DNA of 42,798 nt, taken from the IMG/VR virus record IMGVR_UViG_3300045988_177667, positions 1 through 42,798 of that record; one strand, given 5' to 3'. Made by a program: the position numbers and the translations under genes. The notes beneath the pieces were generated by a model, which made no database searches, was not told the origin of the DNA, and worked only from the letters and a program-made list of their open reading frames with translations. This DNA is from a virus. Shown piece by piece: positions 3,713 through 40,484 of this stretch (position 1 is its first letter; the number at the start of each line of letters is the position of its first letter).

Positions 3713-4195
3713 ATGAGCGACAACGCCGCAAGCGACACGCCAGCCGACAGCAGCGCCACTAACGACGACAACACCCCCAAGAATGGGGACAACGCTGCTA
3801 GTAAGCCTGAAATCGACTGGAAGAGCGAGTCCCGTAAGTGGGAGAGCCGCGCCAAGGAAAATCGGCGCGCCGCCAACGAACGGGATGAGCTTGCCAAGGC
3901 CATCGGCGACAAAGACGCCACAATCGAAGCCCTAAAGTCAAAGGTCGCTGACTTTGAAGCTGCTGCTAAGGTCCGCGAATGGTCCGCTAACGCGGCCGCA
4001 GAGCACGGTATCAGTGCCGATTTGATCCGAGGAACAACCGAGGATGAAATCAACGCTCATGCTGCCGCAATCGCCAAGGCATTGCACGACGCTAAGCCGT
4101 CCGTCGCCCCCGTGGTACCACAGGCCGGAGCCACGCCCGACAATGACGGCGGCAATCTTGCAGAATTCGCTCGGAATGTTTTCACCGGCGACTGA
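3713..4195 (+). CDS. Capsid scaffolding protein (putative)
   Basis: ATG at 3713 with an AGGAAA Shine-Dalgarno 6 nt upstream. The product is a 160-aa acidic, Ala/Lys/Glu-rich, coiled-coil-like protein directly upstream of the major capsid gene. The ORF-track start at 3662 is less likely. Confidence 0.55.
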   Translation: MSDNAASDTPADSSATNDDNTPKNGDNAASKPEIDWKSESRKWESRAKENRRAANERDELAKAIGDKDATIEALKSKVADFEAAAKVREWSANAAAEHGISADLIRGTTEDEINAHAAAIAKALHDAKPSVAPVVPQAGATPDNDGGNLAEFARNVFTGD

Positions 4196-8457: not shown

Positions 8458-11400
8458 ATGGCCGGATATGATCTCGGGACCGCATGGATTCAGATCAGCC
8501 CGTCCGTGCGAGGCCTCGCTCGGAGTATCAATAGCGAAATCAGTAACGTCGATACTGGGCCGGCCGAGAGAAAGATCACATCCGGGCTTGGTGGTGCGTT
8601 CAAATCGGTAGCGAAAGTCGCCGGCGCCGCGCTCGGAGGACTCGCAATCGGCGGAATCGCAGTTGCGTTCGGCGGTGTCGCAAAAGAGGCATTCAATGCT
8701 GCCGACGCCACAATCAAATTCAAGCAAACGCTCGCGTTCGCCGGTAAAAGTGCGGACGAAATCAACGCGCTCACAAAAAGCACACGCTCCTACGCGGACC
8801 GCACGATTTACGAGCTCGACGATATCCAGTCCATTACCGCGCAGCTTGCATCCAACGGCGTAAAGGGCTACGATAAGCTCGCCGAGGCTGCCGGTAACCT
8901 GAACGCTGTTGCTGGTGGAAATGCGCAGACGTTCAAAACGGTCGGTCTCGTTATGACGCAGACTGCGGGCGCCGGAAAACTTACCACCGAGAACTGGAAT
9001 CAGCTTTCCGACGCCATTCCTGGCGCGTCCGGTAAATTGCAGGAAGCCATGAAAAAGAATGGCGCCTACACTGGCAATTTCCGGGAAGCCATGGAAAAAG
9101 GCGAGATCACCGCCGAGGAATTCAACCAAGCAATCCTCGATCTCGGTATGGAGGACGTGGCCATTGAGGCCGCTACATCCACCAAAACCCTGGAAGGCGC
9201 TTGGGGGAATTTCAAAGCGACCCTTGTGACTGGGGCGCAGGAAATCGCCGAAAAAGCACTACCGTGGATCACCGCATCCCTTGACGCCATGAGCAAAGGG
9301 TTCGAAAAAGTATTCAACTGGGTGAGCAATTCATTCATCCCCAGTATTACGAATGCTTTCAACGTTATCCGCAAGGGTGATTTTACGGGCCCGATCTTCT
9401 CGTTCGAAGAAGACTCTAGTTTCGTTGATTTCCTTTTCCGCATGCGTGACGCTGCCGCCGCTGCCGGGGAATGGATCAACAAGACGCTCGTCCCGTCGTT
9501 GAAGAATCTTAAAGATTTGCTTCTGTCCGGTGATTTCACAGGGACGATTTTTGGATTCGACAAAGATTCCGGAATCATTTCCTACATCACCAATGTTCGT
9601 AACAGTTTTGTCGAGCTAGGTAAATTCATTGTCGGGACGCTCGTCCCTGGTATCGCCACGGCGCTCAGCACCATCGCGAACAGCAGCCTCGTCCAATTCA
9701 TGGAGAATCTCACCGTCGCTATTCTCAATAGTAAAGTGGCGGTTTATAGTATTGCGGCTGCGTTTACGGCATGGAAAGCTGTCATGGTCATGTCCTCAAT
9801 GCAGCAATGGTTGAATGACATGGAGGGCGTAGCCGGGGTTGCGGGGCGTGTCACCACGGCCATTAATGCGATGACCGTGGCGAAAGTCAAAGACGTGGTG
9901 GAGACCGCGCAGCTCAACCTCATGTACGCCGGCGAATTCCTGTCAAATATCGCGCGCGCAACGACGCAGATCACGATGCAGGCGGTTGCTTGGGGTAGGG
10001 CCACGGCAATGATGGTCCTCCACAAAACTGCAACAATCGCCTCGACCGCGGCACAGTGGGCATTCAACGCAGCAATGGACGCCAACCCAATCGGCCTCGT
10101 CGTGATCGCTATCGCAGCATTGGTCGCGGCAATCATTGTGGCATGGCAGAACTCCGAAACATTCCGCAACGTCGTCATTTCCTGTTGGGAAGCAATCAAA
10201 ACAGCCGCCGGGGCCGTGGCCGATTGGTTCGCCGCTAACGTATGGCCTCTCATGCAAGTCGCATGGGATGGAATCGTCGCCGGCGCCCAATGGATGTGGG
10301 GCGTCATGGTATCCGTCTGGCAAGGAATGCAGCCCGTTATTCAGGCGGTCATTGATTGGATCGTCGGCACCGCATGGCCCGCGCTCCAGGCGGCATGGGA
10401 CGGAATCGTCGCCGGCGCCCAATGGGTATGGAACGGCATCGTCAACGTCTGGCAGGGAATACAGCCCGTCATTCAAGCTGTCGTCGATTGGATTGTAAAT
10501 ACCGCCTGGCCCAACCTTCAAGCCGCCTGGGACGGTATTTCCGCGGGCGCAATGATCGTTTGGAACGGAATGGTCGCCGCGTGGCAAGGGATCAGCGACA
10601 TAATCCGACCCGTCGTCGACTGGATCGTCAACGTCGCCGCCTTGTATCTCACCACGGCATGGGATGCCATTAGTTGGGGTGTGAGTGCGCTCTGGTCTAC
10701 GATTCAGTGGGCGTGGGACGCTATTTGGGCGGCAATCATGCCCGTCGCCACACAAATCTACAATGATATTTGGCCCATGGTGGTGGGCGCTTTTAACGCG
10801 ATTAAAGACACCGCCTCCATGATGTGGGCCGATATTCAGATCGCGTGGACTGCTATTCAGACCGCAATTCAGCCCGTTGCGGATTGGATTTACAATACGG
10901 TTTGGCCGTGGGTTGTAGGCGCCTTTAATGCGATTAAGGATACGGCCACTAACATGTGGGGCGATATTCAGTCCGCGTGGGCTGCGATTCAGGCTGCTAT
11001 GCAGCCGGTAGTTGAATGGATCTACTATACAGCGTGGCCTTGGGTCGTAGATACTTTCAACACTATCAAGGACGCGGCGTCCAATCTTTGGGGTACGGTT
11101 CAGGCTGCGTGGACCTCTATTCAGGCGGCTATGCAGCCCGTGGTCGAGTGGATTTACTATACGGCCTGGCCCTGGGTCGTCGACACATTCAACACAATTA
11201 AAGATACCGCCTCCGCACTTTGGGGCACCATATCAGCAGCATGGAACGGCATTTGGGCCACCATTCAGCCCGTCGTTGATTGGATCTACAATATTGCATG
11301 GCCATGGGTGGTCGGCGCGTTCAATGCTATTAAAGACACGGCGTCTATTATGTGGGGCTCCCTATCGGCGACGTGGAACGGCATTTGGGCCGTTATGCAG

Positions 11401-16857: not shown

Positions 16858-17559
16858 ATGCCTAATACTAGGTGGACCGGCGGCATCGTCCCCACGGTAG
16901 ATGATAATCTCATTGAGGCCTGGGATGCGTATGATGATTCCGCCGGCAGAGTTATGCCAGCGGCGTCCGTAGCCGCGGCACGGGTCATGCTTGCGGCCGC
17001 ACCATCCGGGGCGGTATCGAAAGCGCGCCCCGCAGTTTTCATTATTGACGACATTCTGTACACCGCTGACGGCTCCAAGGCTGGCGACGGGTCATTCAAC
17101 ATTAACCCAGCGAATTCGTTCAGCGGTGTACTTTACCGGCACCGTGATAATACGAACGGCCGTGGACGCCCTACCTCGGATCATGCTACTTACACGTGGG
17201 GTGACGGTATTGTTACCCTACCTATTAAGAGTCTCATGGAGTTCTCGCTTGACGTGTGCGTGAGCATTGCGCATGAGGATTATCATTCCGAGGAGGAGAA
17301 GGATAAGGCTGTCGGCTCGTATTTCTTCGGATTCAAGCTCGACAATAGGGGTATTTGGCAGACCGAGATTCAATACAATCGCACGTTTATGACGCACCAT
17401 ATGCAATGGCGCCTTTCCGTGGAAGCCGGCTCACACAGGGTCGCTTACACTACGGCGGGCAGCTATGGTGCCGACCCGTACTGGCATTACGATGGCGGCG
17501 TTTTCCCGGGCACGGTGTTTACGGTGGCTACCCTTGGCGCGACCCGCGTTGACCTGTAA
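16858..17559 (+). CDS. Tail-tip/fibre-associated protein, function unknown
   Basis: A 233-aa ORF with an AGGAGA Shine-Dalgarno 7 nt upstream. Confidence 0.45.
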   Translation: MPNTRWTGGIVPTVDDNLIEAWDAYDDSAGRVMPAASVAAARVMLAAAPSGAVSKARPAVFIIDDILYTADGSKAGDGSFNINPANSFSGVLYRHRDNTNGRGRPTSDHATYTWGDGIVTLPIKSLMEFSLDVCVSIAHEDYHSEEEKDKAVGSYFFGFKLDNRGIWQTEIQYNRTFMTHHMQWRLSVEAGSHRVAYTTAGSYGADPYWHYDGGVFPGTVFTVATLGATRVDL

Positions 17560-18002: not shown

Positions 18003-18998
18003 ATGGCAAACGTTACTGGGTACACTAAGGCCGGCGTAGATAAGCTGGTCGCCCCGCTGTTCTCTTCAATCTCGCCTTTCGCGGTCGGCGGACACTACTA
18101 CTCCCCCGTCACGTATTTCTGGCCCGATTTCTACAATGAGGGTCAGGCCGGGAAGATTTCGAAGTGGGCCAAGACGCTGGCCTATGGGAATGCGCTCGGC
18201 TATGTGATCATGAATCGTTCCACGGGCGATTGGTCCGCCAAAGACAACGACTTTCTTACGCAGGCGCAGCGTGCCCAGGCGGCCGGGGCAAAGAGGGTTC
18301 TCTGGTATATTCCTACCCGTTATGGTGTCGCGTCGCTCGCTAAGGAGGACGCCGCTAGGAATGGTGTGCCGGACCCGGATAAGTTTACGCGCGAATACAT
18401 TATGCAGCTGTGCGCCAACCTGCGCTCCCAGTACGATGGTCTTTTCCAGGGTGTATTCTTGGACGAGGTAATCAACGGATGGGGCGTCCAGGCGGGACGC
18501 GTTGGTTGGTACGGTGATCTCATCGGCGAAATTCGACACACCTACGGCAAGGATTTCACAATCGCTATCAACCCTGGTAGCAATATTACTGAGGCAGTGT
18601 GCTCGCTCGATTTCGATGTGTGCATGAGCTTTGAGAATACTGCCGCCAAGTATTTGACGGACGACCCTAATAACCCGATTGCGAATGATGTGATGCGGGC
18701 GCAGCCTTCCACCAAGTGGTGGCACGTTATTCATGGGGTTACGAAAGAGAATTTCCGGCAGGTAATCGATCGCGCCGCATCGTTCGGTGTGTCACATTTG
18801 TATGTGACCGACGGCGAGCTGGTGCAGGGCGAGGGCGGCCAGTGGGTTCCTGAGAAGAATCCTTACCAGAATCCTCCGTCGGATTGGATCATGGAGCGCG
18901 TGGTTGCTTGGCATGGCGGCTACCTCGACCTGGCTGAGCGTGTTGCCGCGTTGGAGGCGAAAGCGGCTCCGGCTCCGTCTCCTCAGCCGGGCGCCTGA
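18003..18998 (+). CDS. Spherulation-specific family 4-like protein, a putative glycoside-hydrolase-like polysaccharide depolymerase
   Basis: A 331-aa ORF, the last gene of the tail block. The pattern GYVIMNRSTGDW...RVLWYIPTRYG...GVFLDEV resembles spherulin-4/GH114-like TIM-barrel families as I recall them. Confidence 0.4.
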   Translation: MANVTGYTKAGVDKLVAPLFSSISPFAVGGHYYSPVTYFWPDFYNEGQAGKISKWAKTLAYGNALGYVIMNRSTGDWSAKDNDFLTQAQRAQAAGAKRVLWYIPTRYGVASLAKEDAARNGVPDPDKFTREYIMQLCANLRSQYDGLFQGVFLDEVINGWGVQAGRVGWYGDLIGEIRHTYGKDFTIAINPGSNITEAVCSLDFDVCMSFENTAAKYLTDDPNNPIANDVMRAQPSTKWWHVIHGVTKENFRQVIDRAASFGVSHLYVTDGELVQGEGGQWVPEKNPYQNPPSDWIMERVVAWHGGYLDLAERVAALEAKAAPAPSPQPGA

Positions 18999-18999
18999 G

Positions 19000-19015
19000 T
19001 GTTTCACGTGAAACA
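19000..19015. promoter_or_regulatory. parS: parS-type 16-bp palindrome TGTTTCACGTGAAACA (chromosomal ParB/Spo0J site consensus), copy 1
   Basis: Exact palindrome starting 2 nt after the stop of the last tail gene. Its right half forms the base of the adjacent terminator stem. Confidence 0.8.
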
Positions 19016-19054
19016 TTCCCCCTCACCACAGAAATCGTGGTGAGGGGGAATGTT
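19012..19054. terminator. Terminator hairpin between convergent operons (18-bp stem aacattccccctcaccac/gtggtgagggggaatgtt)
   Basis: Perfect 18-bp inverted repeat with a 7-nt loop. TTTT follows on the + strand. It lies in the 76-bp gap between 18998 (+) and 19075 (-). Confidence 0.7.
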
Positions 19055-19074
19055 TTCGTACCCGACGGAAGAGA

Positions 19075-19542
19075 CTATAGTCCCAGGCGTTGATAGTCTC
19101 CTCCGTGCTCGCGAGCAATATCGTCCAAGACGCCCATGAGGTCGGAGCGTGCATCGTCCTGAACGGTGATAGACGGCGAGTTCAGGATCGAATGAATCGT
19201 ACTGTTGATTTCCCGAAATCGGCGGCCAGCGATTGCGTCACACTCTACACTGTCCCAACGCCGTGCTAGACGGCGCGCAAGATCAGACGTATTCTCTCCG
19301 CTTGTTTCATGGTATACACCTACAACGTTCAATGGCCAACCCCAGACAACCCATTTGCTGAAAGTGCCGCCGTCGTCATTTTCTACGGTGACATCAATCC
19401 CAACGCCCTTATGCTGGTTGTGCCACTTCAGAAGAGCGACCATGTGCGCTTCGTCAATATCACACACGTCGGGCTTCGGAAGCCATAACTGTACAAGGCT
19501 GATCTCTCGCTCGATCTCCAGCATTAGATTATTTGCTGTCAT
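19075..19542 (-). CDS. Hypothetical protein
   Basis: A 155-aa ORF, the last gene of the leftward module. It overlaps the upstream gene by 4 nt. Confidence 0.55.
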   Translation of the reverse strand: MTANNLMLEIEREISLVQLWLPKPDVCDIDEAHMVALLKWHNQHKGVGIDVTVENDDGGTFSKWVVWGWPLNVVGVYHETSGENTSDLARRLARRWDSVECDAIAGRRFREINSTIHSILNSPSITVQDDARSDLMGVLDDIAREHGGDYQRLGL

Positions 19543-19793
19543 GAAACGCTCCGCAGAAGTAGGCTACAACGCATCGCAGAATGCTCCGGGCTGCAGGATT
19601 CCTCGTGAGTCCATCCTGCTGAGACTCCGCGCTTCGTCGTCACCGCAACACCGTTATCGGTGATCTCGATATTCCCTGACGGGGAGTCAATGACGGTAAC
19701 TCCCGTGCGGTCCGAAATGCGGGGCGACGTAATCGTGTTCTGCAATTCCTTAGCAATAGTCAGCGCAATTTCCCGGCGATCAATCTTGTTCAT
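19539..19793 (-). CDS. Hypothetical protein
   Basis: An 84-aa ORF, translationally coupled to its neighbours. Confidence 0.5.
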   Translation of the reverse strand: MNKIDRREIALTIAKELQNTITSPRISDRTGVTVIDSPSGNIEITDNGVAVTTKRGVSAGWTHEESCSPEHSAMRCSLLLRSVS

Positions 19794-20311
19794 TATTTCA
19801 TCTCCATAGCCGATGGCGTGACGCCGGTCTGCCCCTGATAGTGTGATCCGAGACCATTGGTGCCGTATGGCATGCTGGCCGGCCTGTCCAGATCCTCGAA
19901 AGCGATCTGCGCAATCCTATCCCCCGGGAAAAGACGAGCAGCCTTACTGGAGTGTAGATTGGCGATTTCCAGAGTCACGTTTCCCTGGAATCCCGGATCA
20001 ATGTATCCCGCAGACACGTGCACGAGAATTCCTCGGCGCGCCCACGACGACTTACCTTCCACCCTAGCTACTAGGTCGGCTGGCACGCTGACTTTCTCCT
20101 GGGTGGACGCGAGAATAAACTCACCCGGCAACAGCTCATAACCATTCTCGCCGATGGTGACATTCTCGTCGTCGTGACGGTAGGTGATAATGTTCTCGTC
20201 TAGCCGCACTTCTACCGACGCCGGTTGAATAGACAACGGTTTACGCCAGTCGGAGATGAGTTCACCCCAATCGATTCTGCGTCGGAGAGTGAAATCACTC
20301 AGTGTAGCCAT
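19793..20311 (-). CDS. dcd: dCTP deaminase / dUTPase-superfamily enzyme
   Basis: The 172-aa product has VEGKSSWARRGILVHVSAGYIDPGFQGNVTLEIANL. This closely parallels the E. coli Dcd core ([33 protein letters not shown]). Confidence 0.8.
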   Translation of the reverse strand: MATLSDFTLRRRIDWGELISDWRKPLSIQPASVEVRLDENIITYRHDDENVTIGENGYELLPGEFILASTQEKVSVPADLVARVEGKSSWARRGILVHVSAGYIDPGFQGNVTLEIANLHSSKAARLFPGDRIAQIAFEDLDRPASMPYGTNGLGSHYQGQTGVTPSAMEMK

Positions 20312-20765
20312 TCTGGCGACTCCCGTCTTCGTTTTCCTTGATCATATGGACCGTGTAACCTTTATTGCGTAGGATTGCTTCGGCTTCGAGGGCAAGTGCA
20401 GGCTTCTCTCCCGGGATAATTTCTACCATGTCTTTACCGCGTTCCGACAGTACGATCGCGCAGACGTACGCATCGTCGTCCGACGAGTCGCTGTAAGTGA
20501 GCACATACCCGCCTATCTCATCCGAATATGTGCACCTAGTAAAAGTGACCCTTCCTTCCCGCCATGAACGCAAGGTAAGTGTTACTCCCTGAACAAATTG
20601 CACGGTGTGCATAAGCCCACGGATCGCGGCAGGCGGATCGATAGCATAACTCCTGATAGTGAAGTTACAGTCGGTGGCATGCATAAACGCAGCCGCGCCC
20701 CACAGTTCACCACATTTCGCCAAATCAACGAAAACAATGTTGACAATATTTTCCATAACGCTCAT
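20295..20765 (-). CDS. Hypothetical protein
   Basis: A 156-aa ORF that overlaps both neighbours. Confidence 0.5.
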   Translation of the reverse strand: MSVMENIVNIVFVDLAKCGELWGAAAFMHATDCNFTIRSYAIDPPAAIRGLMHTVQFVQGVTLTLRSWREGRVTFTRCTYSDEIGGYVLTYSDSSDDDAYVCAIVLSERGKDMVEIIPGEKPALALEAEAILRNKGYTVHMIKENEDGSRQNGYTE

Positions 20766-21769
20766 CTCTCTTCTGGAATGTAGTTACTGAGGTGATCGTG
20801 TGAAATGGCGGACATGAACTCTGTGAGCCTGTCTCGAACCTCCCTGGCACGCCCCTGTGGGGTGAGCTGTCTATCAATAGTGTCCCAGTAGACGTTTCGC
20901 AGAATTGCAATCACCGACTGGCTTCCATGGTCGTTGACGAGTTCACGAAGATACCACGCCGCCTTTCCCATATCAACATTCTCGTCAGCATCATTCTTGT
21001 GACCCGCCCTGAAAATATACTTCAAAGCACTGCCTGTCAGATAGTCTTTGTCGCGAATGAAAGTGATGGGCTCAGGATCGAGGGCCACATAATGCGATGG
21101 GTGAGACACGGCATTCTCGTGCACATCATCCTTGACATACTCATCATTCTTCATCACGATATGGAGAACATTATCGTTGGTGGTCAACTCATAGAGCTGC
21201 TCGTCGAACGTGAGAAACGCTCCCCCACCATTCTCATCCTCATACCAAATGCACCATTCGCCAGTGAAATACCGACAAACCTTCCTGACAAGCGCGTCAT
21301 AATCGTCGGAGACATGAAAACGAATCGGTTCGCCCACAAACTTCAACTCACAGCCGGGATCAGACTTATATCTGCCAATACGCCACCAATACCAGCCATC
21401 ATGCTTCTGTTCCAGAGAAACGTAGCGGCGGCTCCAACACTCTACCCGCCGTTCACTGAAAGAATTGCGGCGGACGTGCACCTCCCAAAACCCATCATGC
21501 GGCACTACCTTCGAAACATACTCATACACGCCATTCGGATAGTAAATCTTCTCGCACCCATCATCTACGAGTGACACCACATAATCTCCTCTTTCTGTCT
21601 GTGTGATCGAATACTCGTCGTATCTGAAATAGTGTATCCGTTCTACACCGTCATGAATAGAATTGAAACCAATCCCCTTGCTGTTGTCGGTTTGTGCTAT
21701 GATTCTCTCTTTATTGCCGTCTGGCAAGTACAGCCAAACCGGTTTCAAAAACACCTTGTCCACAATCAT
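20762..21769 (-). CDS. Protein with a DUF3310-like C-terminal domain
   Basis: The 335-aa product has a C-terminal HPSHYVALDPEPITFIRDKDYLTGSALKYIFRAGHK...MGKAAWYLRELV. This matches the DUF3310 pattern as I recall it. Confidence 0.55.
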   Translation of the reverse strand: MIVDKVFLKPVWLYLPDGNKERIIAQTDNSKGIGFNSIHDGVERIHYFRYDEYSITQTERGDYVVSLVDDGCEKIYYPNGVYEYVSKVVPHDGFWEVHVRRNSFSERRVECWSRRYVSLEQKHDGWYWWRIGRYKSDPGCELKFVGEPIRFHVSDDYDALVRKVCRYFTGEWCIWYEDENGGGAFLTFDEQLYELTTNDNVLHIVMKNDEYVKDDVHENAVSHPSHYVALDPEPITFIRDKDYLTGSALKYIFRAGHKNDADENVDMGKAAWYLRELVNDHGSQSVIAILRNVYWDTIDRQLTPQGRAREVRDRLTEFMSAISHDHLSNYIPEER

Positions 21770-21779
21770 TCACGCTATT

Positions 21780-22133
21780 TCAGTTGCCGAGAGTGCCGAC
21801 CGTAGCGAAGTAAGCGAAGAATACTTGGAGCCACCAAAATGCGCGCCACGCCAATGACAGTCCAATAACACCTACAATGAGAGCTACCGCACCCATTGCC
21901 ATACCTTCGCCTGTGGACCGCGGCTTGCGGAGCCATGCCATGAAACGATTAGTGGGGCGCGGGGGCGCCATCACGCTGAGCGGCACAGACCATGCGGGCG
22001 GCGCCGGGGCAGGCCGAGGCTGCGGAGGTGGCGGAGGCGGTGGAGGGGTAGGTGCACTAGCCGCGGGCGGAGGCGGCGCGGGAGTCGGCGCCGACGGGGC
22101 ACTCGAAAAAGTAGGCATAATAGTTTTCCTCAC
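21780..22133 (-). CDS. Pro-rich protein with a hydrophobic C-terminal membrane segment
   Basis: The 117-aa product has a PTPAPPPPAASAPTPPPPPPPPQPRPAPAPP tract followed by MAMGAVALIVGVIGLSLAW and FFAYFATVGTL. The start is uncertain. Confidence 0.45.
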   Translation of the reverse strand: MRKTIMPTFSSAPSAPTPAPPPPAASAPTPPPPPPPPQPRPAPAPPAWSVPLSVMAPPRPTNRFMAWLRKPRSTGEGMAMGAVALIVGVIGLSLAWRAFWWLQVFFAYFATVGTLGN

Positions 22134-22318
22134 TTTCCGTTCAGTTCTGCCATGAGACGGTTGGTCCAGCCGTCACTGTAATTGAAATTCGTACGCTTAG
22201 TGTGGCGTGTGCTCTTGATTCTCTTCGCTCGATTCCTCTTGTGTTCTTGAAACTCGATTGTCTTGCGACGAACCTCATCCCCGCGTCCGTCCATACGGCG
22301 AATTGCTGGGTATTTCAT
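22130..22318 (-). CDS. Small basic protein
   Basis: ATG at 22318 overlaps the upstream stop (ATGA). The product is 62 aa and Arg/Lys-rich. Confidence 0.45.
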   Translation of the reverse strand: MKYPAIRRMDGRGDEVRRKTIEFQEHKRNRAKRIKSTRHTKRTNFNYSDGWTNRLMAELNGK

Positions 22319-22710
22319 GATTTGATCCACTCGATTCCGTCGCCGAGAAGCCCGCGCAAATCATTGATCAAGTTGCGCGCGTTCCCGAACTCCTCTTCGC
22401 TGATATCAAAGATTCGGTAGACGTTTCCTTCGGTGCAGACCACAAGGAAGGAATCGTGGGCGTGTTCTGGGATGAAAACATTGCGGACGTTTCCGATGAG
22501 GGCGGGCCGCTGAACCGGGATGGCCTGTACGAGGTCGGCCCCGGTGAGAATTGCGACAGCGGTCACTCGCTCAACGGGGATTCCCCGGAATTCGTTCTCG
22601 CCTTTCTCGTATCCTTTTGCGGGGAAGTGAATTTTAGTGCCCTTCAGGTTAGTGAATACAGCACCTCCTGTAGTTTTGCATGATCCGTATCCTGTGCGAC
22701 GGCGTGCCAT
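22315..22710 (-). CDS. Hypothetical protein
   Basis: A 131-aa ORF with a GAGAAGAGGA Shine-Dalgarno upstream of its ATG. Confidence 0.55.
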   Translation of the reverse strand: MARRRTGYGSCKTTGGAVFTNLKGTKIHFPAKGYEKGENEFRGIPVERVTAVAILTGADLVQAIPVQRPALIGNVRNVFIPEHAHDSFLVVCTEGNVYRIFDISEEEFGNARNLINDLRGLLGDGIEWIKS

Positions 22711-22798
22711 AGTAATCCTCTTCTCAAAATATGTGTGTGATGGTGGTGGGTGGTGGGTGGCCCGTCACGGTCGACGGGTCGCCGCCGTTATGTGTATG

Positions 22799-23095
22799 TC
22801 AGTGCTCCAGCCACCAATCCGCCAGGTAGGCGATGGTCTCGTCAGTCAGAGCAGAAAGCCCCTCGTGGACGACAGTGAATCCATCGGCATCGTACTGCCA
22901 GAGTCCCCAGGAGACGACGTCGTCGCACGCGTGGAGTCCGAGTGCTTTGCCGCCGTCGGTGGTGCGTCGTATGAGGCCGATGGTCTCGCCGGTCTCGTCC
23001 TCCCAGTAGTCCGTGTCGCCCCAGGCGTCGGCAGCGGTGCCGACGGCGTAGGCGATGTCGGTGTCGGTGGTGATGTTCTCAGTGGTGGTGGTCAT
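22799..23095 (-). CDS. Small acidic protein, the first gene of the leftward 4-kb module
   Basis: An internal ATG at 23095 has a GAGAGG Shine-Dalgarno 8-9 nt upstream. The 98-aa product begins MTTTTENITTDTD. The longer ORF-track version extends into the promoter region. Confidence 0.5.
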   Translation of the reverse strand: MTTTTENITTDTDIAYAVGTAADAWGDTDYWEDETGETIGLIRRTTDGGKALGLHACDDVVSWGLWQYDADGFTVVHEGLSALTDETIAYLADWWLEH

Positions 23096-23300
23096 TGTCT
23101 TGTCCTCTCTATCCCTGGCTGGGTGGCTTGTCCTCCCTGCCGATGTCTTAATCATGCTCTCCCGCATGCCGTGAGTCAATCCTACGTGACGGTGACCCAT
23201 CCCACAAAACCAATGTGTGTGAGGTATTGACAGACAGTGGGCGCGTGTGATATACGCGCGCGCACGCACCTATATATATCGAGAAGACACTCAGACGTCC
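23096..23300. promoter_or_regulatory. Divergent intergenic control region between the leftward module and the lysis cassette
   Basis: A perfect TTGACA lies at 23227..23232 (+), with AT-rich -10 candidates 16-18 nt downstream. TTGACT lies on the - strand at 23174..23179. A GCGCGT/ACGCGC inverted repeat and a TATATATAT run are also present. Confidence 0.4.
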
Positions 23301-24809
23301 ATGATAAAATTAAAGCCACCGAAAACCTTTACGAAAGGCGGTGCAAAATTGGCAGATTCCGTCACAGAATATGCTGCGTCGGAAATGAAATATTGGTGCA
23401 CCACAGGCGACTACGGGGGCACCGGTTATGCCCAGGATAACCGGTGGACCTGTTACTGGAATTCCAATGATGCCGGATGGAAAACTGGTCCCGGTGACAT
23501 GGATTGCAGTAGCGGCGTAGCGGGCGCCTACAATATTGCATTCCACAATGTCTGGGGAACCGGCTGGGACGATCCGATCATGTTCCCGCGGACCGGCGAA
23601 ACATGGACAGAAACTCTGAATTCCTTGGCCGCGAATCGCGGTTTCATGGATATCGGGGACACTTGGTACGGGTCTACGCCGTCGGGCGGATTCCATGTCG
23701 GCGACATGGTCCTGAAAACTACCGGAGACGGTGGACATGTCGCAATGTGCGTGCGCGAAGACGATGGCTCATTCAACGCGGGCGACCCTTTGCTCGCTGA
23801 GGCGTGGATTAATGAGAATGGCGAAATTTCTGAAGGGCAGATGGGGGATCAGACCGGCTACGAAACACATGTAGTCCGGTATAGTAGTCACCCGATGACT
23901 GTCGCGAGCTCGTGGTCAACCTGTATCCGTTTCGGAAAGCGAACCGATTCCGATAACGGGCACGAGTCCGCCGGCTCGTACCGCCTTTCTTCAATTCAGG
24001 AGGCCGTTCTCAGGGCCGCCGATGCGGAGAGTTGTCCGTGGTGGGCCGCTCTGGCGTGCCTGTGGATGGAGACCGGCGAGCGTGGCGCAAACATTTACGG
24101 GCACGACGCCGGAGGCGCTGGCCCGCACGGCGAGGAGGTGACCGAGGAGAATTTCCGCGAATTCCTTGCGGCAATTCGAGACGGTGAAAACTCGAACGGT
24201 GTCGGGCCACTGCAGATCACGTATCCGGGCTATTTCTTTGATGATCCGGATCGTGAATGGTGGATGCCTGAAAAGTCGGCTGAGGTCGGCTGCCGTATTC
24301 TTCGTGATCTCATTAACGCGGAGGGCGATTCTTATGAGGCCTTGAAGCGTGTCGGGTCGCGGTATAATTCAGGAAACCCGTATGACGCGTATGAGTCTTA
24401 TGGGATTCTTTTCAGTAATCGTTGCAAGTCTTGGTATGATTATGGCCGCCCGTCTGGGGGTGCCGGAGAGGAATTTTGGGATATGAGCGAGGGCGTTGAT
24501 CTGCTCAGGGAGATTCGCGATCTTTTCCGTAGTGGAAAGGCGGGGGACCACTTTGCGGGCGACATGAATTGGTATGCCAAGGCGACCTACGAGGAGGTTA
24601 AGTCTATTCACGCGTCTGTGGATCAGATTCTGCATTCTGTGACTCCGGGTCAGGAGAATGTTCGTGAGGCGGGCGCGATCTATGGTGCCGTGAACGAGAT
24701 TCGTAAGGCAGTGTCTACGCCGTCGTCTTTGCAGGCGCATGATGGTGTCGCGGAGTCTCCGACTCCGGAGTCTCCCGCCCCGGCTCCGGCTCCGGAGCAG
24801 AATTCCTGA
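23301..24809 (+). CDS. Endolysin with an N-terminal Cys/His peptidase-like domain and a lytic-transglycosylase-like domain
   Basis: The product is 502 aa from the ATG at 23301. DCSSGVAGAY...GHVAMCV looks like a Cys-His peptidase signature. WMETGERGANIYGHD looks like a transglycosylase Glu motif. The domain assignment is from memory of endolysin families. Confidence 0.65.
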   Translation: MIKLKPPKTFTKGGAKLADSVTEYAASEMKYWCTTGDYGGTGYAQDNRWTCYWNSNDAGWKTGPGDMDCSSGVAGAYNIAFHNVWGTGWDDPIMFPRTGETWTETLNSLAANRGFMDIGDTWYGSTPSGGFHVGDMVLKTTGDGGHVAMCVREDDGSFNAGDPLLAEAWINENGEISEGQMGDQTGYETHVVRYSSHPMTVASSWSTCIRFGKRTDSDNGHESAGSYRLSSIQEAVLRAADAESCPWWAALACLWMETGERGANIYGHDAGGAGPHGEEVTEENFREFLAAIRDGENSNGVGPLQITYPGYFFDDPDREWWMPEKSAEVGCRILRDLINAEGDSYEALKRVGSRYNSGNPYDAYESYGILFSNRCKSWYDYGRPSGGAGEEFWDMSEGVDLLREIRDLFRSGKAGDHFAGDMNWYAKATYEEVKSIHASVDQILHSVTPGQENVREAGAIYGAVNEIRKAVSTPSSLQAHDGVAESPTPESPAPAPAPEQNS

Positions 24810-24935
24810 CGCAGCATATTGGCATTTATCGTAGCCTGTTCATTCGCTATTATGCTGAGTGTCGTTCCACGATAGATGTGACATGCGGGGAGCTTCACTC
24901 TCTTCCCTCTCCGCGATCTCCTGTGGTAGTGGTAG

Positions 24936-24987
24936 AGCAAGTCTCCGGACGGTCAATGAAAGATCGTCCGGAGACTTGCTTTTGTTG
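24936..24987 (+). terminator. Intrinsic terminator after the endolysin gene
   Basis: Perfect 16-bp stem agcaagtctccggacg/cgtccggagacttgct followed by TTTGTTG. Confidence 0.75.
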
Positions 24988-25147
24988 TGTGCTATACTTT
25001 CCAGCGTACCGCTTAATGGTTAATACACAAATATTTTCCTACGCGTTCCGACGGTGCAATAAGAGAATACTACCGCCCTCACGATGACTCCTAGAGCTGC
25101 TAAGAGAAATGTAGGAAACGTGAGGGCGGTAGTGTACAATTCATCCA

Positions 25148-25378
25148 ATGAAAGTGAAAATTAAGGTGACTAAGTCGCTTTATGTTGCTACTATTTTTGC
25201 GGCTGTCATGGTGACAGCAAACACTGCGCTCATGGTGCATGAAGATTTCACCAATGGCACTATGAATGTAACTCGCGATTCCTTGTGGTGTGTTGGCGCA
25301 CTCATTCTTTGGGCCAGTGTGCGCACTGTCCGATTCATGCGGACTGTCGGCTACCATCCTGGCTTCCATAGAAAGTGA
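25148..25378 (+). CDS. Small membrane protein in a moron-like cassette
   Basis: The 76-aa product has two hydrophobic segments (LYVATIFAAVMVTANTALMV and LWCVGALILWASV). The DNA is locally AT-richer. The cassette is bracketed by the 24936 terminator, a TGcTATACT element (24993), a 15-bp-stem hairpin (25069..25133) and the 25388 hairpin. No good Shine-Dalgarno was seen. Confidence 0.4.
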   Translation: MKVKIKVTKSLYVATIFAAVMVTANTALMVHEDFTNGTMNVTRDSLWCVGALILWASVRTVRFMRTVGYHPGFHRK

Positions 25379-25387
25379 TCGAATCGT

Positions 25388-25429
25388 AACATTCCCCTCT
25401 AGCAATCATCGTTGCTAGAGGGGAATGTT
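25388..25429 (+). terminator. Hairpin of the AACATT...AATGTT family (18-bp stem aacattcccctctagcaa/ttgctagaggggaatgtt)
   Basis: Perfect 18-bp inverted repeat with a 6-nt loop. TATAAT (25431..25436) follows immediately. Confidence 0.6.
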
Positions 25430-25486
25430 ATATAATATGCGTTAGCAACCCTGCAAAAACAATACGATAAAGAGGACATTAAACAC

Positions 25487-25858
25487 ATGGTGGCCCCTTT
25501 CCTGAGCGATGTTCTCTCTGACGCTACTTTGGTTGCCTTGTCCGCGCTCACGGGCACAATATTCTCAAACGTAACGCAACGCAAGAATGCGCGAGACCAG
25601 GAACAGATCTCAATCCTGGACATTACCGTCCGGTCCCTTTCTGAGAGAGTGACCGCCCTGGAGACCAGTCTTGCGGCCGCCGAAAGAGCGGCGGACCGGG
25701 CAGAAGATGGGCGCAGGCGGGCGGAAGTAAAATGGTGGGAGGCTGTCTCTTTCGCACACACTGTTCTCGATTGGGGACGGTCTCTGAAAATTCTGATACC
25801 ATCTGATAAAGAGGACTCAATCCCTACTGAGCCTCAAATTCCGGAATCTATGAGGTGA
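25487..25858 (+). CDS. Lysis-cassette protein with an N-terminal membrane segment and a coiled coil
   Basis: A 123-aa ORF with an AAAGAGGA Shine-Dalgarno. It has a hydrophobic N-terminus (LVALSALTGTIF) followed by an Ala/Glu/Arg-rich helix. Confidence 0.5.
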   Translation: MVAPFLSDVLSDATLVALSALTGTIFSNVTQRKNARDQEQISILDITVRSLSERVTALETSLAAAERAADRAEDGRRRAEVKWWEAVSFAHTVLDWGRSLKILIPSDKEDSIPTEPQIPESMR

Positions 25859-25867
25859 TTCATAAAC

Positions 25868-26101
25868 ATGTTTACTCCTGAGGTCCGCAAGGCGCTTTAC
25901 GCCCTGCTCACTGCTGTTCTCGGCGTTTTTGCGGCGTTCAATGTTATTTCCGCTGACCAGGCGTCTCAGTACGCTGACGCTGCGACCCAGATTGTCGGTG
26001 CTCTGACTCTGGCTCTGGCCACGTATCACACTCGCCCCGGCGCGGCCGCTGGCCGTCACGCCGCCGGTGAGGGTGAGGCTACTGAGGACAAGGTCGCCTG
26101 A
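25868..26101 (+). CDS. Holin (putative)
   Basis: The 77-aa product has two hydrophobic helices (ALYALLTAVLGVFAAFNVI and IVGALTLALATY) and a charged C-terminal tail. It is the last gene of the lysis cassette. Confidence 0.55.
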   Translation: MFTPEVRKALYALLTAVLGVFAAFNVISADQASQYADAATQIVGALTLALATYHTRPGAAAGRHAAGEGEATEDKVA

Positions 26102-26116
26102 CCTCCGTCATTCATA

Positions 26117-26166
26117 GAAACATTACTGCCCCCTACCGAACAAGTGGTAGGGGGCAGTAATGTTTC
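26117..26166. terminator. Terminator hairpin between convergent operons (21-bp stem gaaacattactgccccctacc/ggtagggggcagtaatgtttc)
   Basis: Perfect inverted repeat with an 8-nt loop. The right arm contains the left half of parS copy 2, and the left arm begins with a GAAACA half-site. Confidence 0.7.
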
Positions 26167-26176
26167 ACGTGAAACA
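26161..26176. promoter_or_regulatory. parS: parS-type palindrome TGTTTCACGTGAAACA, copy 2
   Basis: Exact 16-mer that overlaps the terminator stem. Confidence 0.8.
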
Positions 26177-26183
26177 CGGGGCA

Positions 26184-26199
26184 TGTTTCACGTGAAACA
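26184..26199. promoter_or_regulatory. parS: parS-type palindrome TGTTTCACGTGAAACA, copy 3 (an 18-bp palindrome at 26183..26200)
   Basis: Exact 16-mer 23 bp centre-to-centre from copy 2. It ends 1-2 nt before the stop codon of the RuvC-like gene. Confidence 0.8.
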
Positions 26200-27744: not shown

Positions 27745-27816
27745 CTCTCTTCTCGGTTGAATGGCGGGGGCAACATGATTGCTGCCCCCGCCATTCAAAT
27801 CATGCGACCATGTGTG

Positions 27817-32299: not shown

Positions 32300-32381
32300 T
32301 GAAATTCGTCCAAACGATCACTAGAAGACAAATGGCGAGCATGAACACAAGGCATGTCATCTGCTCTTTCCTTTCTGACAT

Positions 32382-32423
32382 GAGGAACCCCGTCCCGTTG
32401 ACAATGACGGGACGGGGTTCCTC
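32382..32423. terminator. Strong hairpin without a U-tract inside the leftward operon (17-bp stem gaggaaccccgtcccgt/acgggacggggttcctc)
   Basis: Perfect 17-bp inverted repeat with an 8-nt loop, between genes ending at 32431 and starting at 32299. Confidence 0.55.
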
Positions 32424-32430
32424 GTGGTGG

Positions 32431-38851: not shown

Positions 38852-39196
38852 GTGAGCAACACCATCCACCGTACTGACGACCCCGCCCTCGAGACCATCG
38901 AGCTCGGCGCCATCTACCGGGTTCATGCTCCTCGCACCGGCGAGCCCTGGACCCTCTACACGACGGGTGACGATTGCGGCGTCGACTCGATCGCCCCGCT
39001 GGAGGTGCCCGACGGATGGGACGACTCCTACGAGTACGCGATGGTCGACGAGAACATTTGGTCTCGTCTCGCTCGCCTCGCCCATGACGCTTTCCTCGCC
39101 AACGCGATCCTTGAGGTCGCCATCGTTCCCGTCGTCGACGAGGAGGCGGACGCCGACTCGCACGCTCTGCTGCACCGTCACTCCTGGCCCTACTGA
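38852..39196 (+). CDS. Acidic hypothetical protein
   Basis: GTG at 38852 follows GAGAGGAAGG. The product is 114 aa. The upstream part of ORF 38666..39196 looks non-coding. Confidence 0.45.
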   Translation: MSNTIHRTDDPALETIELGAIYRVHAPRTGEPWTLYTTGDDCGVDSIAPLEVPDGWDDSYEYAMVDENIWSRLARLAHDAFLANAILEVAIVPVVDEEADADSHALLHRHSWPY

Positions 39197-39217
39197 TCTG
39201 ACTGTCCCGAGGACGAC

Positions 39218-39250
39218 GAGGCCCCATCTCCGACGAGGAGGTGGGGCCTC
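39218..39250 (+). terminator. Hairpin after 38852..39196 (gaggcccca/tggggcctc)
   Basis: A 9-bp GC-rich stem with inner CTCC/GGAG pairing. There is no clear U-tract. Confidence 0.4.
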
Positions 39251-39595
39251 AGTGCGTCTTAGATGGAGGAAAGGCGGTGTGTGATGGGTGTGTGATGTCG
39301 ACCACCGCACAGTGTCGATCTCTCACAGTTTCCGTTAACCTTCTGTTTACTTTGTTCACCTCCCGTTCACTTTCTACGCATGTGGGTTGTTTGCTAGCAA
39401 CTGGTTTTCTAGGACAAAAACACCCGTTTGTGTTACTACAATGTTGGTGCGTGTCGTCACACTTTCTGCCTTTGTAGCAAGGTTTTGCGCCAGAGAGTTC
39501 CTTGTGATTGCAACGTTTAGTCCCCGTTTGTGATTGTTTTGTTGGCAGTGTTTGTTGCTGGGACTTTAGTCTATATGCTACACTCGAGTAGACGA

Positions 39596-39675
39596 ATCGT
39601 CGAAGACGATCGGCGGCGCAGCCGCTGAGGAGCCCTAGCGACGCAAGCGAGCGTCAGCGCCGCCGGGTGTTTTCG
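39596..39675 (+). other. GC-rich compound hairpin followed by TTTT (orphan terminator or small structured RNA candidate)
   Basis: It contains atcgtc-gaa-gacgat. A 9-bp stem cggcggcgc/gcgccgccg then encloses a 37-nt GC-rich interior. ggtgTTTTcg follows. Confidence 0.35.
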
Positions 39676-39726
39676 AAGAGCTCGCCACTGTGTTGGGCCC
39701 AACCTATACTCTTAAAAGAGTACTAG

Positions 39727-39765
39727 AATTAGACACTGTCTAGCTGTGTTAGACAGTGTCTAATT
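39727..39765. promoter_or_regulatory. Paired palindromic operator-like sites AATTAGACAcTGTCTA / TAGACAgTGTCTAATT
   Basis: Two 13-bp palindromes (TAGACAnTGTCTA) lie 20 bp centre-to-centre. Together they form a 16-bp inverted repeat with a 7-bp spacer. Confidence 0.5.
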
Positions 39766-39910
39766 AGGGAATATGTGTTGTAACGTAATTAGTGTTCAAT
39801 GGTGAACATGGTGATCGTTAACAGTGAACAGTGTGTGGTGAGGACAACAATGCTGCTGTAGTGGTACACAACATACACACCTATTAAGTACACAAACCCA
39901 GAAACAATAA

Positions 39911-39970
39911 GGCGCGTGTTGTGTTACGTGCGTGCTCGCAGAGCTGCGCGCGCACTACACAACACACGCC
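39911..39970. repeat. Structured hairpin element, copy A (conserved 35-nt core, 14-bp outer stem)
   Basis: The sequence is ggcgcgtgttgtgt-tacgtgcgtgctcgcagagctgcgcgcgcact-acacaacacacgcc. The core matches copy B at 33 of 35 positions. Confidence 0.6.
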
Positions 39971-40047
39971 AACCCACAAACAAAGAGAAGAAGAAAAGCG
40001 AGGAGAGGAGGAAGAAGAAGGAAGAGGAGGAAGCAACAGAGAGAGTA

Positions 40048-40105
40048 GTGTTAGACGGTGGAGGCGCTCGTCTCGCTGACGCTGCGACGCGCCACCACCT
40101 AACAC
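40048..40105. repeat. Third imperfect GTGTT...AACAC hairpin
   Basis: gtgttag/ctaacac, ggtgg/ccacc and ggcgc/gcgcc are paired segments separated by bulges. Confidence 0.4.
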
Positions 40106-40139
40106 GACACAAAAAGAAGAGCAAAGAAGAAGAAACACG

Positions 40140-40484
40140 GTGAGCAGAACAAGCACAAAAGAACACAAACAATTCAGAAAACAAGTACTCGCCAGAGCAC
40201 AACAAATGGGCATCACACACTGCCCAGCATGCGGAACCAAACTCCAATACAACAACAACGGACAACGCAAACCCAACAGTGCCGAAGCCGACCACATAAT
40301 CCCAGCCTCGTTAGGCGGAACCAACCACCCAGACAACGGGCGAGTCCTCTGCGCCAAATGCAACAGCAGACGCGGCAACGGACGAGGAGGAAAAGGAAGA
40401 GCACGCCACTACCAGAAAAACGAAAACGAACGAGACAGACTACCCGTAGCCGTCATGCCCACCGAACACACCAACACATGGTGA
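40140..40484 (+). CDS. HNH endonuclease (terminase-associated type, judged by position)
   Basis: The 114-aa product reads HCPACGTKL...EADHIIPASLGGTNHPDNGRVLCAKCNSRRGN, the classic HNH with Cys pairs. It has a GTG start. It is located upstream of terS/terL, as in HK97-like cos phages. Confidence 0.8.
   Translation: MSRTSTKEHKQFRKQVLARAQQMGITHCPACGTKLQYNNNGQRKPNSAEADHIIPASLGGTNHPDNGRVLCAKCNSRRGNGRGGKGRARHYQKNENERDRLPVAVMPTEHTNTW

What the first reader, a model, noticed from the sequence alone, without database searches (positions are those of the whole stretch)
19012..26166. Family of AACATT...AATGTT terminator hairpins whose arms are parS half-sites
Three long perfect hairpins share the closing sequence AACATT/AATGTT but have different GC-rich interiors. 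They lie at 19012..19054, 25388..25429 and 26117..26166.

In two of them the arms continue into GAAACA and TGTTTC, so the terminator stem is physically fused to a full parS site. The layouts are parS1-hairpin-AATGTTTT, and GAAACATT-hairpin-parS2-parS3. The third (25388) has GTAACATT...AATGTTA, which looks like a degenerate relative.

This points to a modular parS-plus-terminator unit that has been duplicated and diverged. RNA or DNA hairpin formation and ParB binding could be mutually exclusive.
Basis: seen in the sequence. Interest (0 to 1): 0.7.

Follow-up and report, generated by a model that had tools for sequence, protein, structure and literature searches.

The report
Phage terminator hairpins abutting host centromere sites
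An oral actinobacterial phage with no partition genes of its own carries three exact copies of the bacterial chromosome centromere sequence (parS), each beside an ordinary terminator hairpin, probably to borrow the host's DNA-segregation protein as phage phi29 does.

Summary
Three perfect 19-21 bp hairpins closed by AACATT/AATGTT and three perfect 16-bp parS sites sit where stated. Both are conserved in about 50-60 related oral-metagenome phage genomes.

The hairpins behave as ordinary RNA terminators. Two lie at the only two convergent operon junctions and look bidirectional. One lies inside the lysis cassette and looks unidirectional. Stems keep pairing through double changes, loops vary freely and even flip orientation, and wobble pairs in the unidirectional hairpin favour the transcribed strand.

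The "arms are parS half-sites" reading is only partly right. Four to six stem bases double as the outer bases of an abutting parS. The opposite arm is just their complement. The third hairpin never has a parS. Hairpin and parS also vary independently in natural variants. No evidence supports a ParB-versus-hairpin switch.

The more interesting fact is the parS trio itself. It is invariant while adjacent spacers vary, and the phage has no detectable ParA, ParB or integrase. The closest precedent is virulent phage phi29, which has five host-type parS sites used through host Spo0J. One phi29 site likewise follows a stop codon and abuts the bidirectional terminator TD1. I rate this a new member of a known kind, of moderate interest.

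The parts
19000..19015 (.). parS1, a perfect host-chromosome-type centromere TGTTTCACGTGAAACA. It starts 1 nt after the TGA stop of the last structural-operon gene.
   Evidence: perfect match; perfect in 38 of 41 relatives; the other 3 differ only at base 1.
19011..19055 (.). Hairpin B: a 19-bp perfect stem with a 7-nt loop at the convergent junction. The + strand gene ends at 18998 and the - strand gene ends at 19075. Probable bidirectional intrinsic terminator. Its left arm shares AAACA with parS1.
   Evidence: -39.9 and -40.2 kcal/mol on the two strands; 97.6% of cells paired across 41 genomes, 3 pairs with double changes; loop present in both orientations.
25387..25430 (+). Hairpin C: a 19-bp perfect stem 8 nt after the stop of a 76-aa membrane-protein ORF (25148-25378). 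A conserved TATAAT and the next + strand gene (25487) follow. Probable unidirectional terminator. No parS in any genome.
   Evidence: non-Watson-Crick pairs are G-U in the + sense 43 times against 10 A-C.
26117..26166 (.). Hairpin A: a 21-bp perfect stem with an 8-nt loop at the second convergent junction. The + strand holin-like gene ends at 26101 and the - strand RuvC-like gene ends at 26201. Probable bidirectional terminator. Its right arm shares TGTTTC with parS2.
   Evidence: 96.7% of cells paired across 49 genomes, 8 pairs with double changes (0 of 500 shuffles reach this), 4 of them inside AACATT/AATGTT.
26161..26176 (.). parS2, a perfect parS whose first 6 bases lie in the stem of hairpin A.
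   Evidence: perfect in 40 of 49 relatives; in five relatives base 1 (four) or base 2 (one) changed together with its partner in the stem.
26177..26183 (.). Variable 7-10 nt spacer between parS2 and parS3.
   Evidence: 32 distinct spacer sequences among 49 genomes, in contrast with the invariant parS.
26184..26199 (.). parS3, a perfect parS that ends 1 nt before the stop codon of the - strand RuvC-like gene.
   Evidence: perfect in 47 of 49 relatives.
24936..24980 (+). Comparison element: a canonical terminator after the endolysin gene, with an 18-19 bp stem followed by TTTTGTTGTG. It has no AACATT closure.

Best explanation
Two separate functional elements happen to share a few bases.

(1) The three hairpins are RNA-level intrinsic transcription terminators. 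A and B serve both converging operons at the only two convergent junctions of the genome. C ends a short + strand unit inside the lysis cassette. AACATT/AATGTT is the A/U-rich base of these stems. Read outward from the G-run it gives the transcript ...GGGGG-AAUGUUU on either strand.

(2) At junctions A and B the remaining non-coding bases hold perfect copies of the chromosomal centromere parS (2 and 1 copies). The phage has no detectable ParA or ParB. The sites therefore most likely load the host's own ParB, so that phage DNA is handled by the host segregation machinery. This could mean partition to daughter cells, or positioning during a delayed or carrier infection. Virulent phage phi29 does the same with host Spo0J.

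The overlap arises because parS is wedged directly against the stem in a very short gap between a stop codon and the terminator. Its outer bases TGTT(TC) serve as both the last stem pairs (or U-rich tail) and as part of parS.

What is shown: the sites, their conservation, stem covariation, strand-biased wobble, the absence of detectable partition genes, and the phi29 parallel. What is inferred: ParB binding, termination itself, and the biological purpose.
For: Position:
- The hairpins start 8-15 nt after stop codons, at operon ends.

Structure:
- Strong folds on both strands.
- Stems conserved with double changes, while loops are free (29 loop variants).
- G-U against A-C counts are 43:10 in the co-directional hairpin C, but mixed (14:22 and 14:10) in the convergent hairpins A and B.

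parS:
- Three perfect matches against 0.22 expected.
- parS3, parS2 and parS1 are perfect in 47/49, 40/49 and 38/41 relatives. The spacer between parS2 and parS3 has 32 variants.
- About 58 of 66 related loci keep the sites at both positions, about 7.1 kb apart.

No partition or lysogeny genes:
- No ParA, ParB, integrase or repressor hit in Pfam or PHROGs scans, or in precomputed Pfam hits on the called genes.

Precedent:
- phi29 has five parS sites and uses host Spo0J (PMC2731898).
- Its site at 17243-17258 starts right after the gene 16 stop and lies 3 nt before the annotated bidirectional terminator at 17262-17301.
- Host-type parS also occurs in phi29-like metagenomic podoviruses (L128 and L156, four perfect sites each) and in 340 deposited phage records.
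Against: - There are no binding, transcript-end or infection data.
- The host is unidentified, so its ParB and its own parS are assumed, not seen.
- The U-tract is weak. The consensus terminator scan flagged the 24935-24981 hairpin but none of the three AACATT hairpins.
- Each parS locus is shielded by its hairpin from one direction only, so it is transcribed as a 3' UTR from the other side.
- Some lineages have decayed or fewer parS sites (L038, L045, L021), so the sites are not indispensable.
- Loops flip orientation often. The arms therefore recombine or template-switch at the DNA level, and this could create "compensatory" changes without selection on RNA pairing.
- Many small phage proteins have no detectable family, so a divergent DNA-binding protein cannot be excluded.
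Confidence: 0.6

Rival explanations
1. A modular parS-plus-terminator unit works as a switch. Extrusion of the hairpin (DNA cruciform or RNA) and ParB binding exclude each other because the stem consumes a parS half-site.
For: The stem and parS share 4-6 bp. The composite is conserved, and three relatives have parS on both sides of hairpin B. Loop flip-flop shows that the arms do interact at the DNA level at some frequency.
Against: Only the outermost 4-6 of 16 parS bases overlap. parS3 and parS1 in most genomes are largely free of the stem. Wobble bias indicates an RNA hairpin, and an RNA hairpin cannot compete with duplex parS. Hairpin and parS occur without each other (L038, L044, hairpin C). 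Where the two conflict, base pairing is kept and the parS base is sacrificed.
Confidence: 0.1
2. Decoy or take-over. The parS sites on a replicating phage genome (three per copy, many copies per cell) soak up host ParB. This derails host chromosome segregation, condensin loading or division control, to the phage's benefit, rather than partitioning phage DNA.
For: The same sequence evidence for host-type parS and the absence of phage ParAB applies. No lysogeny module was detected, which fits a purely lytic phage.
Against: No evidence separates this from hitch-hiking. phi29, the only studied case, uses the sites to move phage DNA (PMC2731898). Three sites is a small number for a titration device.
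Confidence: 0.15
3. The palindromes are bound by an unrecognised phage protein, or act only as extra RNA/DNA secondary structure. Their identity to host parS would then be coincidental.
For: Most early genes have no family assignment. The parS palindrome folds as a small RNA hairpin next to the terminator.
Against: There are three 16/16 matches to the chromosomal consensus. They are invariant rather than co-varying, while true structural stems nearby co-vary. The same 16-mer recurs in unrelated phages of many hosts. A structural role alone would not hold every base fixed.
Confidence: 0.08
4. The hairpins are DNA-level elements, such as mobile palindromes or replication or recombination sites, and not terminators.
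For: The arms are long and perfect. Loop inversion is frequent (19 against 30 for hairpin A and 17 against 23 for hairpin B). The U-tracts are weak.
Against: The positions are fixed directly after stop codons at operon ends in all relatives. There are only three copies and no insertion polymorphism. Strand-biased G-U in hairpin C points to RNA. Rfam and repeat searches show no dispersed family.
Confidence: 0.07

Closest known systems
Host-type parS (Spo0J/ParB binding) sites of virulent Bacillus phage phi29 and its relatives Nf and B103
   Same: A phage without its own ParAB carries several copies of the host chromosomal parS. In phi29 one copy starts directly after a stop codon (gene 16) and sits 3 nt from the bidirectional terminator TD1 at the convergent late/early junction. 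This is the same layout as parS1 with hairpin B here.
   Different: phi29 is a 19-kb protein-primed podovirus of a spore-former, and its sites serve spore entrapment. Four of its five sites carry one mismatch and the fifth three, and four of the five lie inside genes. Here the phage is a 42.7-kb siphovirus-type genome from the human mouth with actinobacteriophage affinities. All three sites are perfect, intergenic and base-sharing with the terminator stems. The purpose in a probably non-sporulating host is unknown.
Bidirectional intrinsic (Rho-independent) terminators at convergent genes
   Same: GC-rich stem-loop between converging stop codons, with mutually complementary A-rich and U-rich flanks that lengthen the stem. 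The structure is equally stable on both strands.
   Different: The flanks are AACATT/AATGTT rather than clean A/T runs, so the U-tract is poor. Part of the flank is also part of a parS.
Plasmid-prophage parABS systems (P1, N15, mycobacteriophage RedRock type)
   Same: Centromere-like sites on a phage genome, presumed to act in DNA partition.
   Different: Those phages encode their own ParA and ParB and use their own specific repeats. Here no ParA or ParB was found, and the site is the host chromosomal consensus.
Tandem or palindrome-embedded host-type parS in deposited actinobacteriophages (Glutamicibacter phage Voltaire, Gordonia phage Woes, Microbacterium phage Kozie)
   Same: The same perfect 16-mer occurs in phages of Actinobacteria. 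Voltaire has two copies 3 nt apart right after the endolysin stop, much like parS2 and parS3 after the lysis cassette here.
   Different: These are unrelated genomes. There is no AACATT hairpin. In Woes the parS itself is the centre of a 28-bp palindrome. I found no paper in the held library that describes these sites.

Membership tests
Chromosomal-type parS centromere | 16-bp palindrome matching TGTTTCACGTGAAACA | tested here: met
   Three 16/16 matches, 0.22 expected even with 3 mismatches allowed.
Chromosomal-type parS centromere | Sequence held by purifying selection, not merely by palindromy | tested here: met
   Perfect in 47/49, 40/49 and 38/41 relatives, while the adjacent spacer has 32 variants and the loops 29.
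Chromosomal-type parS centromere | Bound by ParB, with CTP-dependent loading | not testable with these tools
   Needs ChIP-seq or in vitro binding. The host is unidentified.
Intrinsic terminator (bidirectional for A and B) | Stable GC-rich stem-loop just downstream of stop codons, at convergent gene ends | tested here: met
Intrinsic terminator (bidirectional for A and B) | U-rich tract directly 3' of the stem | tested here: inconclusive
   The consensus scan did not list these hairpins. Counted from the G-run, the tail is AAUGUUUU or AAUGUUUC, which has 4-5 U in 8.
Intrinsic terminator (bidirectional for A and B) | Pairing maintained in evolution at the RNA level | tested here: met
   8 and 3 pairs with double changes. 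G-U against A-C is 43:10 in the unidirectional hairpin C. Caveat: loop flip-flop implies arm-to-arm conversion.
Intrinsic terminator (bidirectional for A and B) | Transcript 3' ends at the hairpin | not testable with these tools
   No transcript data are available.
phi29-type hitch-hiking on host ParB/Spo0J | Phage lacks its own ParA and ParB | tested here: met
   No hit in Pfam or PHROGs or in precomputed Pfam hits on the called genes of the parts of the genome those look-ups covered. This is negative evidence only.
phi29-type hitch-hiking on host ParB/Spo0J | Several host-type parS sites on a phage with no lysogeny module | tested here: met
   No integrase or repressor found. No close prophage in 185,579 species genomes.
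phi29-type hitch-hiking on host ParB/Spo0J | Use in spore entrapment, with Spo0A boxes | not tested
   The host is unknown. The phage's actinobacteriophage affinities make a sporulating Bacillus-type host unlikely.
Plasmid-prophage parABS | Phage-encoded ParA and ParB with cognate phage-specific repeats | tested here: not met
   No ParA or ParB found. The sites are the host consensus.
Dispersed mobile palindromes (REP/MITE-like) | Many copies, with presence/absence polymorphism between genomes | tested here: not met
   Three copies at fixed positions in all relatives examined.

The most novel reading that the evidence does not exclude
The parS-terminator composite could be a transcription-gated centromere. 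Host ParB would load on the phage only while the converging operons are quiet, in a dormant or carrier infection. It would then partition or tether the genome, and might dampen the 7-kb island bracketed by the two parS loci, which holds the lysis cassette. Once late and early operons fire, polymerases running into the terminators would strip ParB and release genomes for replication and packaging. On this reading the recurring order of stop codon, parS, then bidirectional terminator, seen here and at one phi29 site, would be a designed coupling and not just a shortage of space.
Probability: 0.1. Interest if true: 0.75.

Novelty: new member of a known kind. Interest (0 to 1): 0.5.

Why it matters
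If host ParB really loads on these sites, a whole family of abundant human-oral phages with no partition or lysogeny genes would be using the bacterial chromosome's own centromere. That would extend the phi29/Spo0J trick beyond spore-formers.

It would also offer a concrete, testable mechanism for how phages with no lysogeny genes persist in dividing cells, the carrier state proposed for lytic phages found in bacterial isolate assemblies (PMC12768965).

The same 16-mer turns up in 340 deposited phage records, including cultivable Microbacterium, Gordonia, Arthrobacter and Clostridium phages. The idea could therefore be tested in tractable systems.

The hairpin closure on its own is ordinary terminator anatomy.

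Tried and rejected
1. Decayed-parS test. I asked whether the outer flanks of hairpins A, B and C are decayed parS sites, using an anchored gapped alignment against all genome windows. The result was not significant: P = 0.07 for the window's hairpin A flank and 0.41 or more for the others. I make no relic claim.

2. Host identification. A portal search of species genomes gave only distant prophages, the best being Timonella at 57%. An endolysin search gave nothing. Megablast of 9 kb against deposited phages gave nothing.

3. Generic-terminator test. None of the 120 lies next to a parS, and 53 are true hairpins. This shows the closure needs no parS, but I ran no control decamers, so enrichment cannot be judged. 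It also gave no clue to the host.

4. General parS-hairpin adjacency. In unrelated viral contigs, 13 of 166 parS sites (8%) have an adjacent hairpin, against 2% of random positions. This is a modest excess that intergenic location could explain.

5. Rfam and tRNA scans found nothing.

6. Literature. The held library has no paper on host-type parS in actinobacteriophages or oral phages. Only the phi29 family is described. Livny et al. 2007 was not available.

7. The closest isolate, Actinomyces phage LC001, and more distant relatives (L062-L064) have neither parS nor AACATT hairpins. Both features are therefore specific to this clade.


Full report
**What is in the sequence**

The window is a complete, circularly permuted phage genome of about 42.7 kb. 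Its first 55 bases repeat at the end, and GC is 55%.

Three perfect inverted repeats lie at 19011-19055 (19 bp arms), 25387-25430 (19 bp) and 26117-26166 (21 bp). All three are closed by AACATT...AATGTT, followed inward by a C-run and G-run.

That pattern occurs four times against 0.05 expected. The fourth match, at 38186, is not a hairpin.

Perfect TGTTTCACGTGAAACA occurs at 19000, 26161 and 26184. Nothing else matches even with three mismatches allowed (0.22 expected).

The window has six hairpins with 18 or more paired bases in the 19-33 kb region and a seventh, with 17, at 39727-39765. Only these three carry the AACATT closure. The one after the endolysin gene (24936-24980) has a classical TTTTGTTGTG tail instead.

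**Context**

- Structural genes run on the + strand up to 18998.
- A block of - strand genes (dCTP deaminase-like, DUF3310 and others) ends at 19075.
- An endolysin and holin cassette runs on the + strand from about 23250 to 26101.
- The replication arm (RuvC-like, AAA_24, exonuclease, SNF2 helicase, DUF3987 primase-helicase) runs on the - strand and ends at 26201.

Hairpins B (19011) and A (26117) therefore occupy the only two convergent junctions of the genome.

Hairpin C (25387) follows the stop of a 76-aa membrane-protein ORF by 8 nt. It precedes a conserved TATAAT and the next + strand gene.

parS1 begins 1 nt after a TGA stop. parS3 ends 1 nt before the stop of the RuvC-like gene.

The contig comes from human oral metagenomes. 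The portal protein is 55% identical to Actinomyces phage LC001, 57% to a Timonella prophage, and 34-39% to other actinobacteriophages. An oral actinobacterial host is inferred, not shown.

**Relatives**

A search with the RuvC-like protein returned 66 related viral contigs. About 58 keep parS directly after that gene. Wherever the contig reaches far enough, a further parS lies about 7.1 kb away.

- In alignments of 49 (locus A) and 41 (locus B) genomes, parS3 is perfect in 47, parS2 in 40 and parS1 in 38.
- The 7-10 nt spacer between parS2 and parS3 has 32 different sequences, and the hairpin A loop has 29.
- The parS bases are therefore held as sequence. A palindrome that only needed to pair would not be held this way.

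The stems behave differently.

- Hairpin A is 96.7% paired, with 8 pairs showing changes on both sides (0 of 500 shuffles reach this).
- Four of those pairs lie inside AACATT/AATGTT. The variants are AACGTT/AACGTT, AACACT/AGTGTT, AACACC/GGTGTT and AATATT/AATATT.
- In five genomes such a double change removes base 1 or 2 of parS2.
- Hairpin B is 97.6% paired, with 3 such pairs.

**RNA or DNA?**

Almost all non-Watson-Crick cells are transitions.

| Hairpin | Setting | G-U in the + sense | A-C |
|---|---|---|---|
| C | Between co-directional + strand genes | 43 | 10 |
| A | Convergent junction | 14 | 22 |
| B | Convergent junction | 14 | 10 |

These counts are what RNA hairpins would give if C is read from one strand and A and B from both. 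The cells are not independent events, so this is suggestive and not proof.

Folding energies are -32 to -60 kcal/mol on either strand, with z from -6.4 to -10.3.

The loops of A and B exist in both orientations among relatives: 19 against 30 for A, and 17 against 23 for B. An example is GCAGAAATCGT against its exact reverse complement ACGATTTCTGC. The arms therefore exchange at the DNA level. This is neutral for a bidirectional terminator. It also means that some "compensatory" changes may be arm-to-arm conversion and not selection on each pair.

**Are the arms parS half-sites?**

Only in a limited sense. Where parS abuts the stem, its outer four to six bases are also the last stem pairs. The other arm is simply their complement.

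- The full GAAACA left of hairpin A is unique to this genome. The other 48 have GAACATT with a bulge.
- The flanks are not recognisable decayed parS sites (P = 0.07 to 0.41).
- Hairpin C never has a parS.
- L038 keeps hairpin A with both parS decayed.
- L044 keeps a parS with no hairpin.
- L021, L023, L037 and L046 have one parS at locus A.
- L007, L018 and L022 have parS on both sides of hairpin B.

The two elements are thus independent modules that gain and lose each other.

Hairpins with the arms AACATTCCCC/GGGGAATGTT exist in at least 120 diverse bacterial genomes. Their most common outer flanks are AA and TT, and none lies beside a parS.

Within this phage lineage, distant relatives without parS also lack the closure. 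A and B share CCCCCT.ACC inside the stem, and B and C share AACATTCCCC. Common descent of the three hairpins is therefore plausible but unproven.

**What the parS sites are for**

No ParA, ParB, integrase or repressor was detected in this genome. No close prophage exists in 185,579 species genomes.

The published precedent is phi29. It is a virulent phage with five host-type parS sites, and its genome is moved into the prespore with the help of host Spo0J (PMC2731898).

Reading phi29 itself, the site at 17243-17258 starts immediately after the gene 16 stop. It lies 3 nt from the annotated bidirectional terminator at 17262-17301. This is the same order of parts as parS1 with hairpin B.

Host-type parS is also common elsewhere.

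- At least 120 IMG/VR contigs carry the 18-mer.
- These include phi29-like podoviruses with four perfect sites each.
- 340 deposited phage records carry it, from Clostridium, Microbacterium, Bacillus, Gordonia, Arthrobacter and even Microviridae.
- Glutamicibacter phage Voltaire has a tandem pair right after its endolysin stop.
- Direct adjacency to a hairpin is only modestly enriched in general, 8% against 2%.

**Verdict**

The most likely account is ordinary terminators that share a few bases with host-type centromeres squeezed into the same short gaps. The centromeres would recruit host ParB to a phage that has no partition genes.

ParB binding, termination and the purpose remain inferred. 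The candidate purposes are carrier-state partition, ParB titration, and a transcription-gated switch.

This is a new member of the phi29-type phenomenon, in an actinobacteriophage-like family from the human mouth. Interest is moderate.

Noticed in passing
window 25067-25135: A fourth long hairpin lies in the 170-nt gap between the endolysin terminator and the 76-aa ORF. It has 17-bp arms (ACTACCGCCCTCACG... / ...CGTGAGGGCGGTAGT) around a 35-nt interior. The interior is in the opposite orientation to all 44 relatives where it could be found. The same inverted form appears in independent assemblies drawn from at least three sequencing data sets, so it is a real lineage-specific inversion. A TACAAT box follows. 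Whether the flip affects expression of the downstream genes is unknown.
   Followed up: partly
window 19030-19036 and 26138-26145; alignments A1 and A2: The loops of hairpins A and B occur in both orientations among relatives (19 against 30, and 17 against 23), often as exact reverse complements. This flip-flop inversion implies frequent arm-to-arm recombination or template switching.
   Followed up: yes
L192 (phage phi29) 17243-17301: One of phi29's parS sites (TGTTTCACGTGGAACA) starts on the base after the gene 16 stop codon. It lies 3 nt before the annotated bidirectional terminator. This is the same order of parts as in the window.
   Followed up: yes
L128 (3050, 5687, 5721, 11241) and L156 (5635, 11379, 12899, 13616): Two unrelated 14-kb metagenomic phi29-like podoviruses each carry four perfect host-type parS sites. 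PHROGs hits support the assignment: a major head protein in both, a collar connector and neck-appendage protein in L128, and a DNA polymerase of the family shared with phi29-like phages in L156. In L128 a hairpin (ACATATGCAG...CTGCATATGT) followed by TTT runs straight into a tandem parS pair.
   Followed up: partly
Deposited phage records; L317, L318, L319: 340 deposited phage records hold 17-20 nt parS matches. They include about 50 Microbacterium, 23 Gordonia and 20 Arthrobacter phages, Clostridium perfringens podoviruses and small Microviridae with several sites. Glutamicibacter phage Voltaire has two perfect parS sites 3 nt apart right after its amidase gene. In Gordonia phage Woes the parS is the centre of a 28-bp palindrome. 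I found no paper describing these.
   Followed up: partly
window 39727-39765, within the gene-poor stretch of about 39200-40440: A perfect 16-bp inverted repeat (AATTAGACACTGTCTA / TAGACAGTGTCTAATT, 7 nt apart) sits in a 1.2-kb stretch with no called gene. Next to it is a lone + strand gene (38852-39196, 114 aa, no family) among - strand genes. This could be an operator or origin region.
   Followed up: no
window 27757-27798 and 32379-32426: Two more 18-19 bp hairpins lie inside the - strand replication arm: TTGAATGGCGGGGGCAACA... between two genes, and CATGAGGAACCCCGTCCCGT.... They are probably internal terminators or attenuators. Neither has the AACATT closure.
   Followed up: no
L038 about 3980-4060; L045 about 10484-10540: These natural variants have degraded parS sites at locus A (a deletion and several substitutions) while hairpin A stays intact. 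They could serve as ready-made controls for any functional test.
   Followed up: partly
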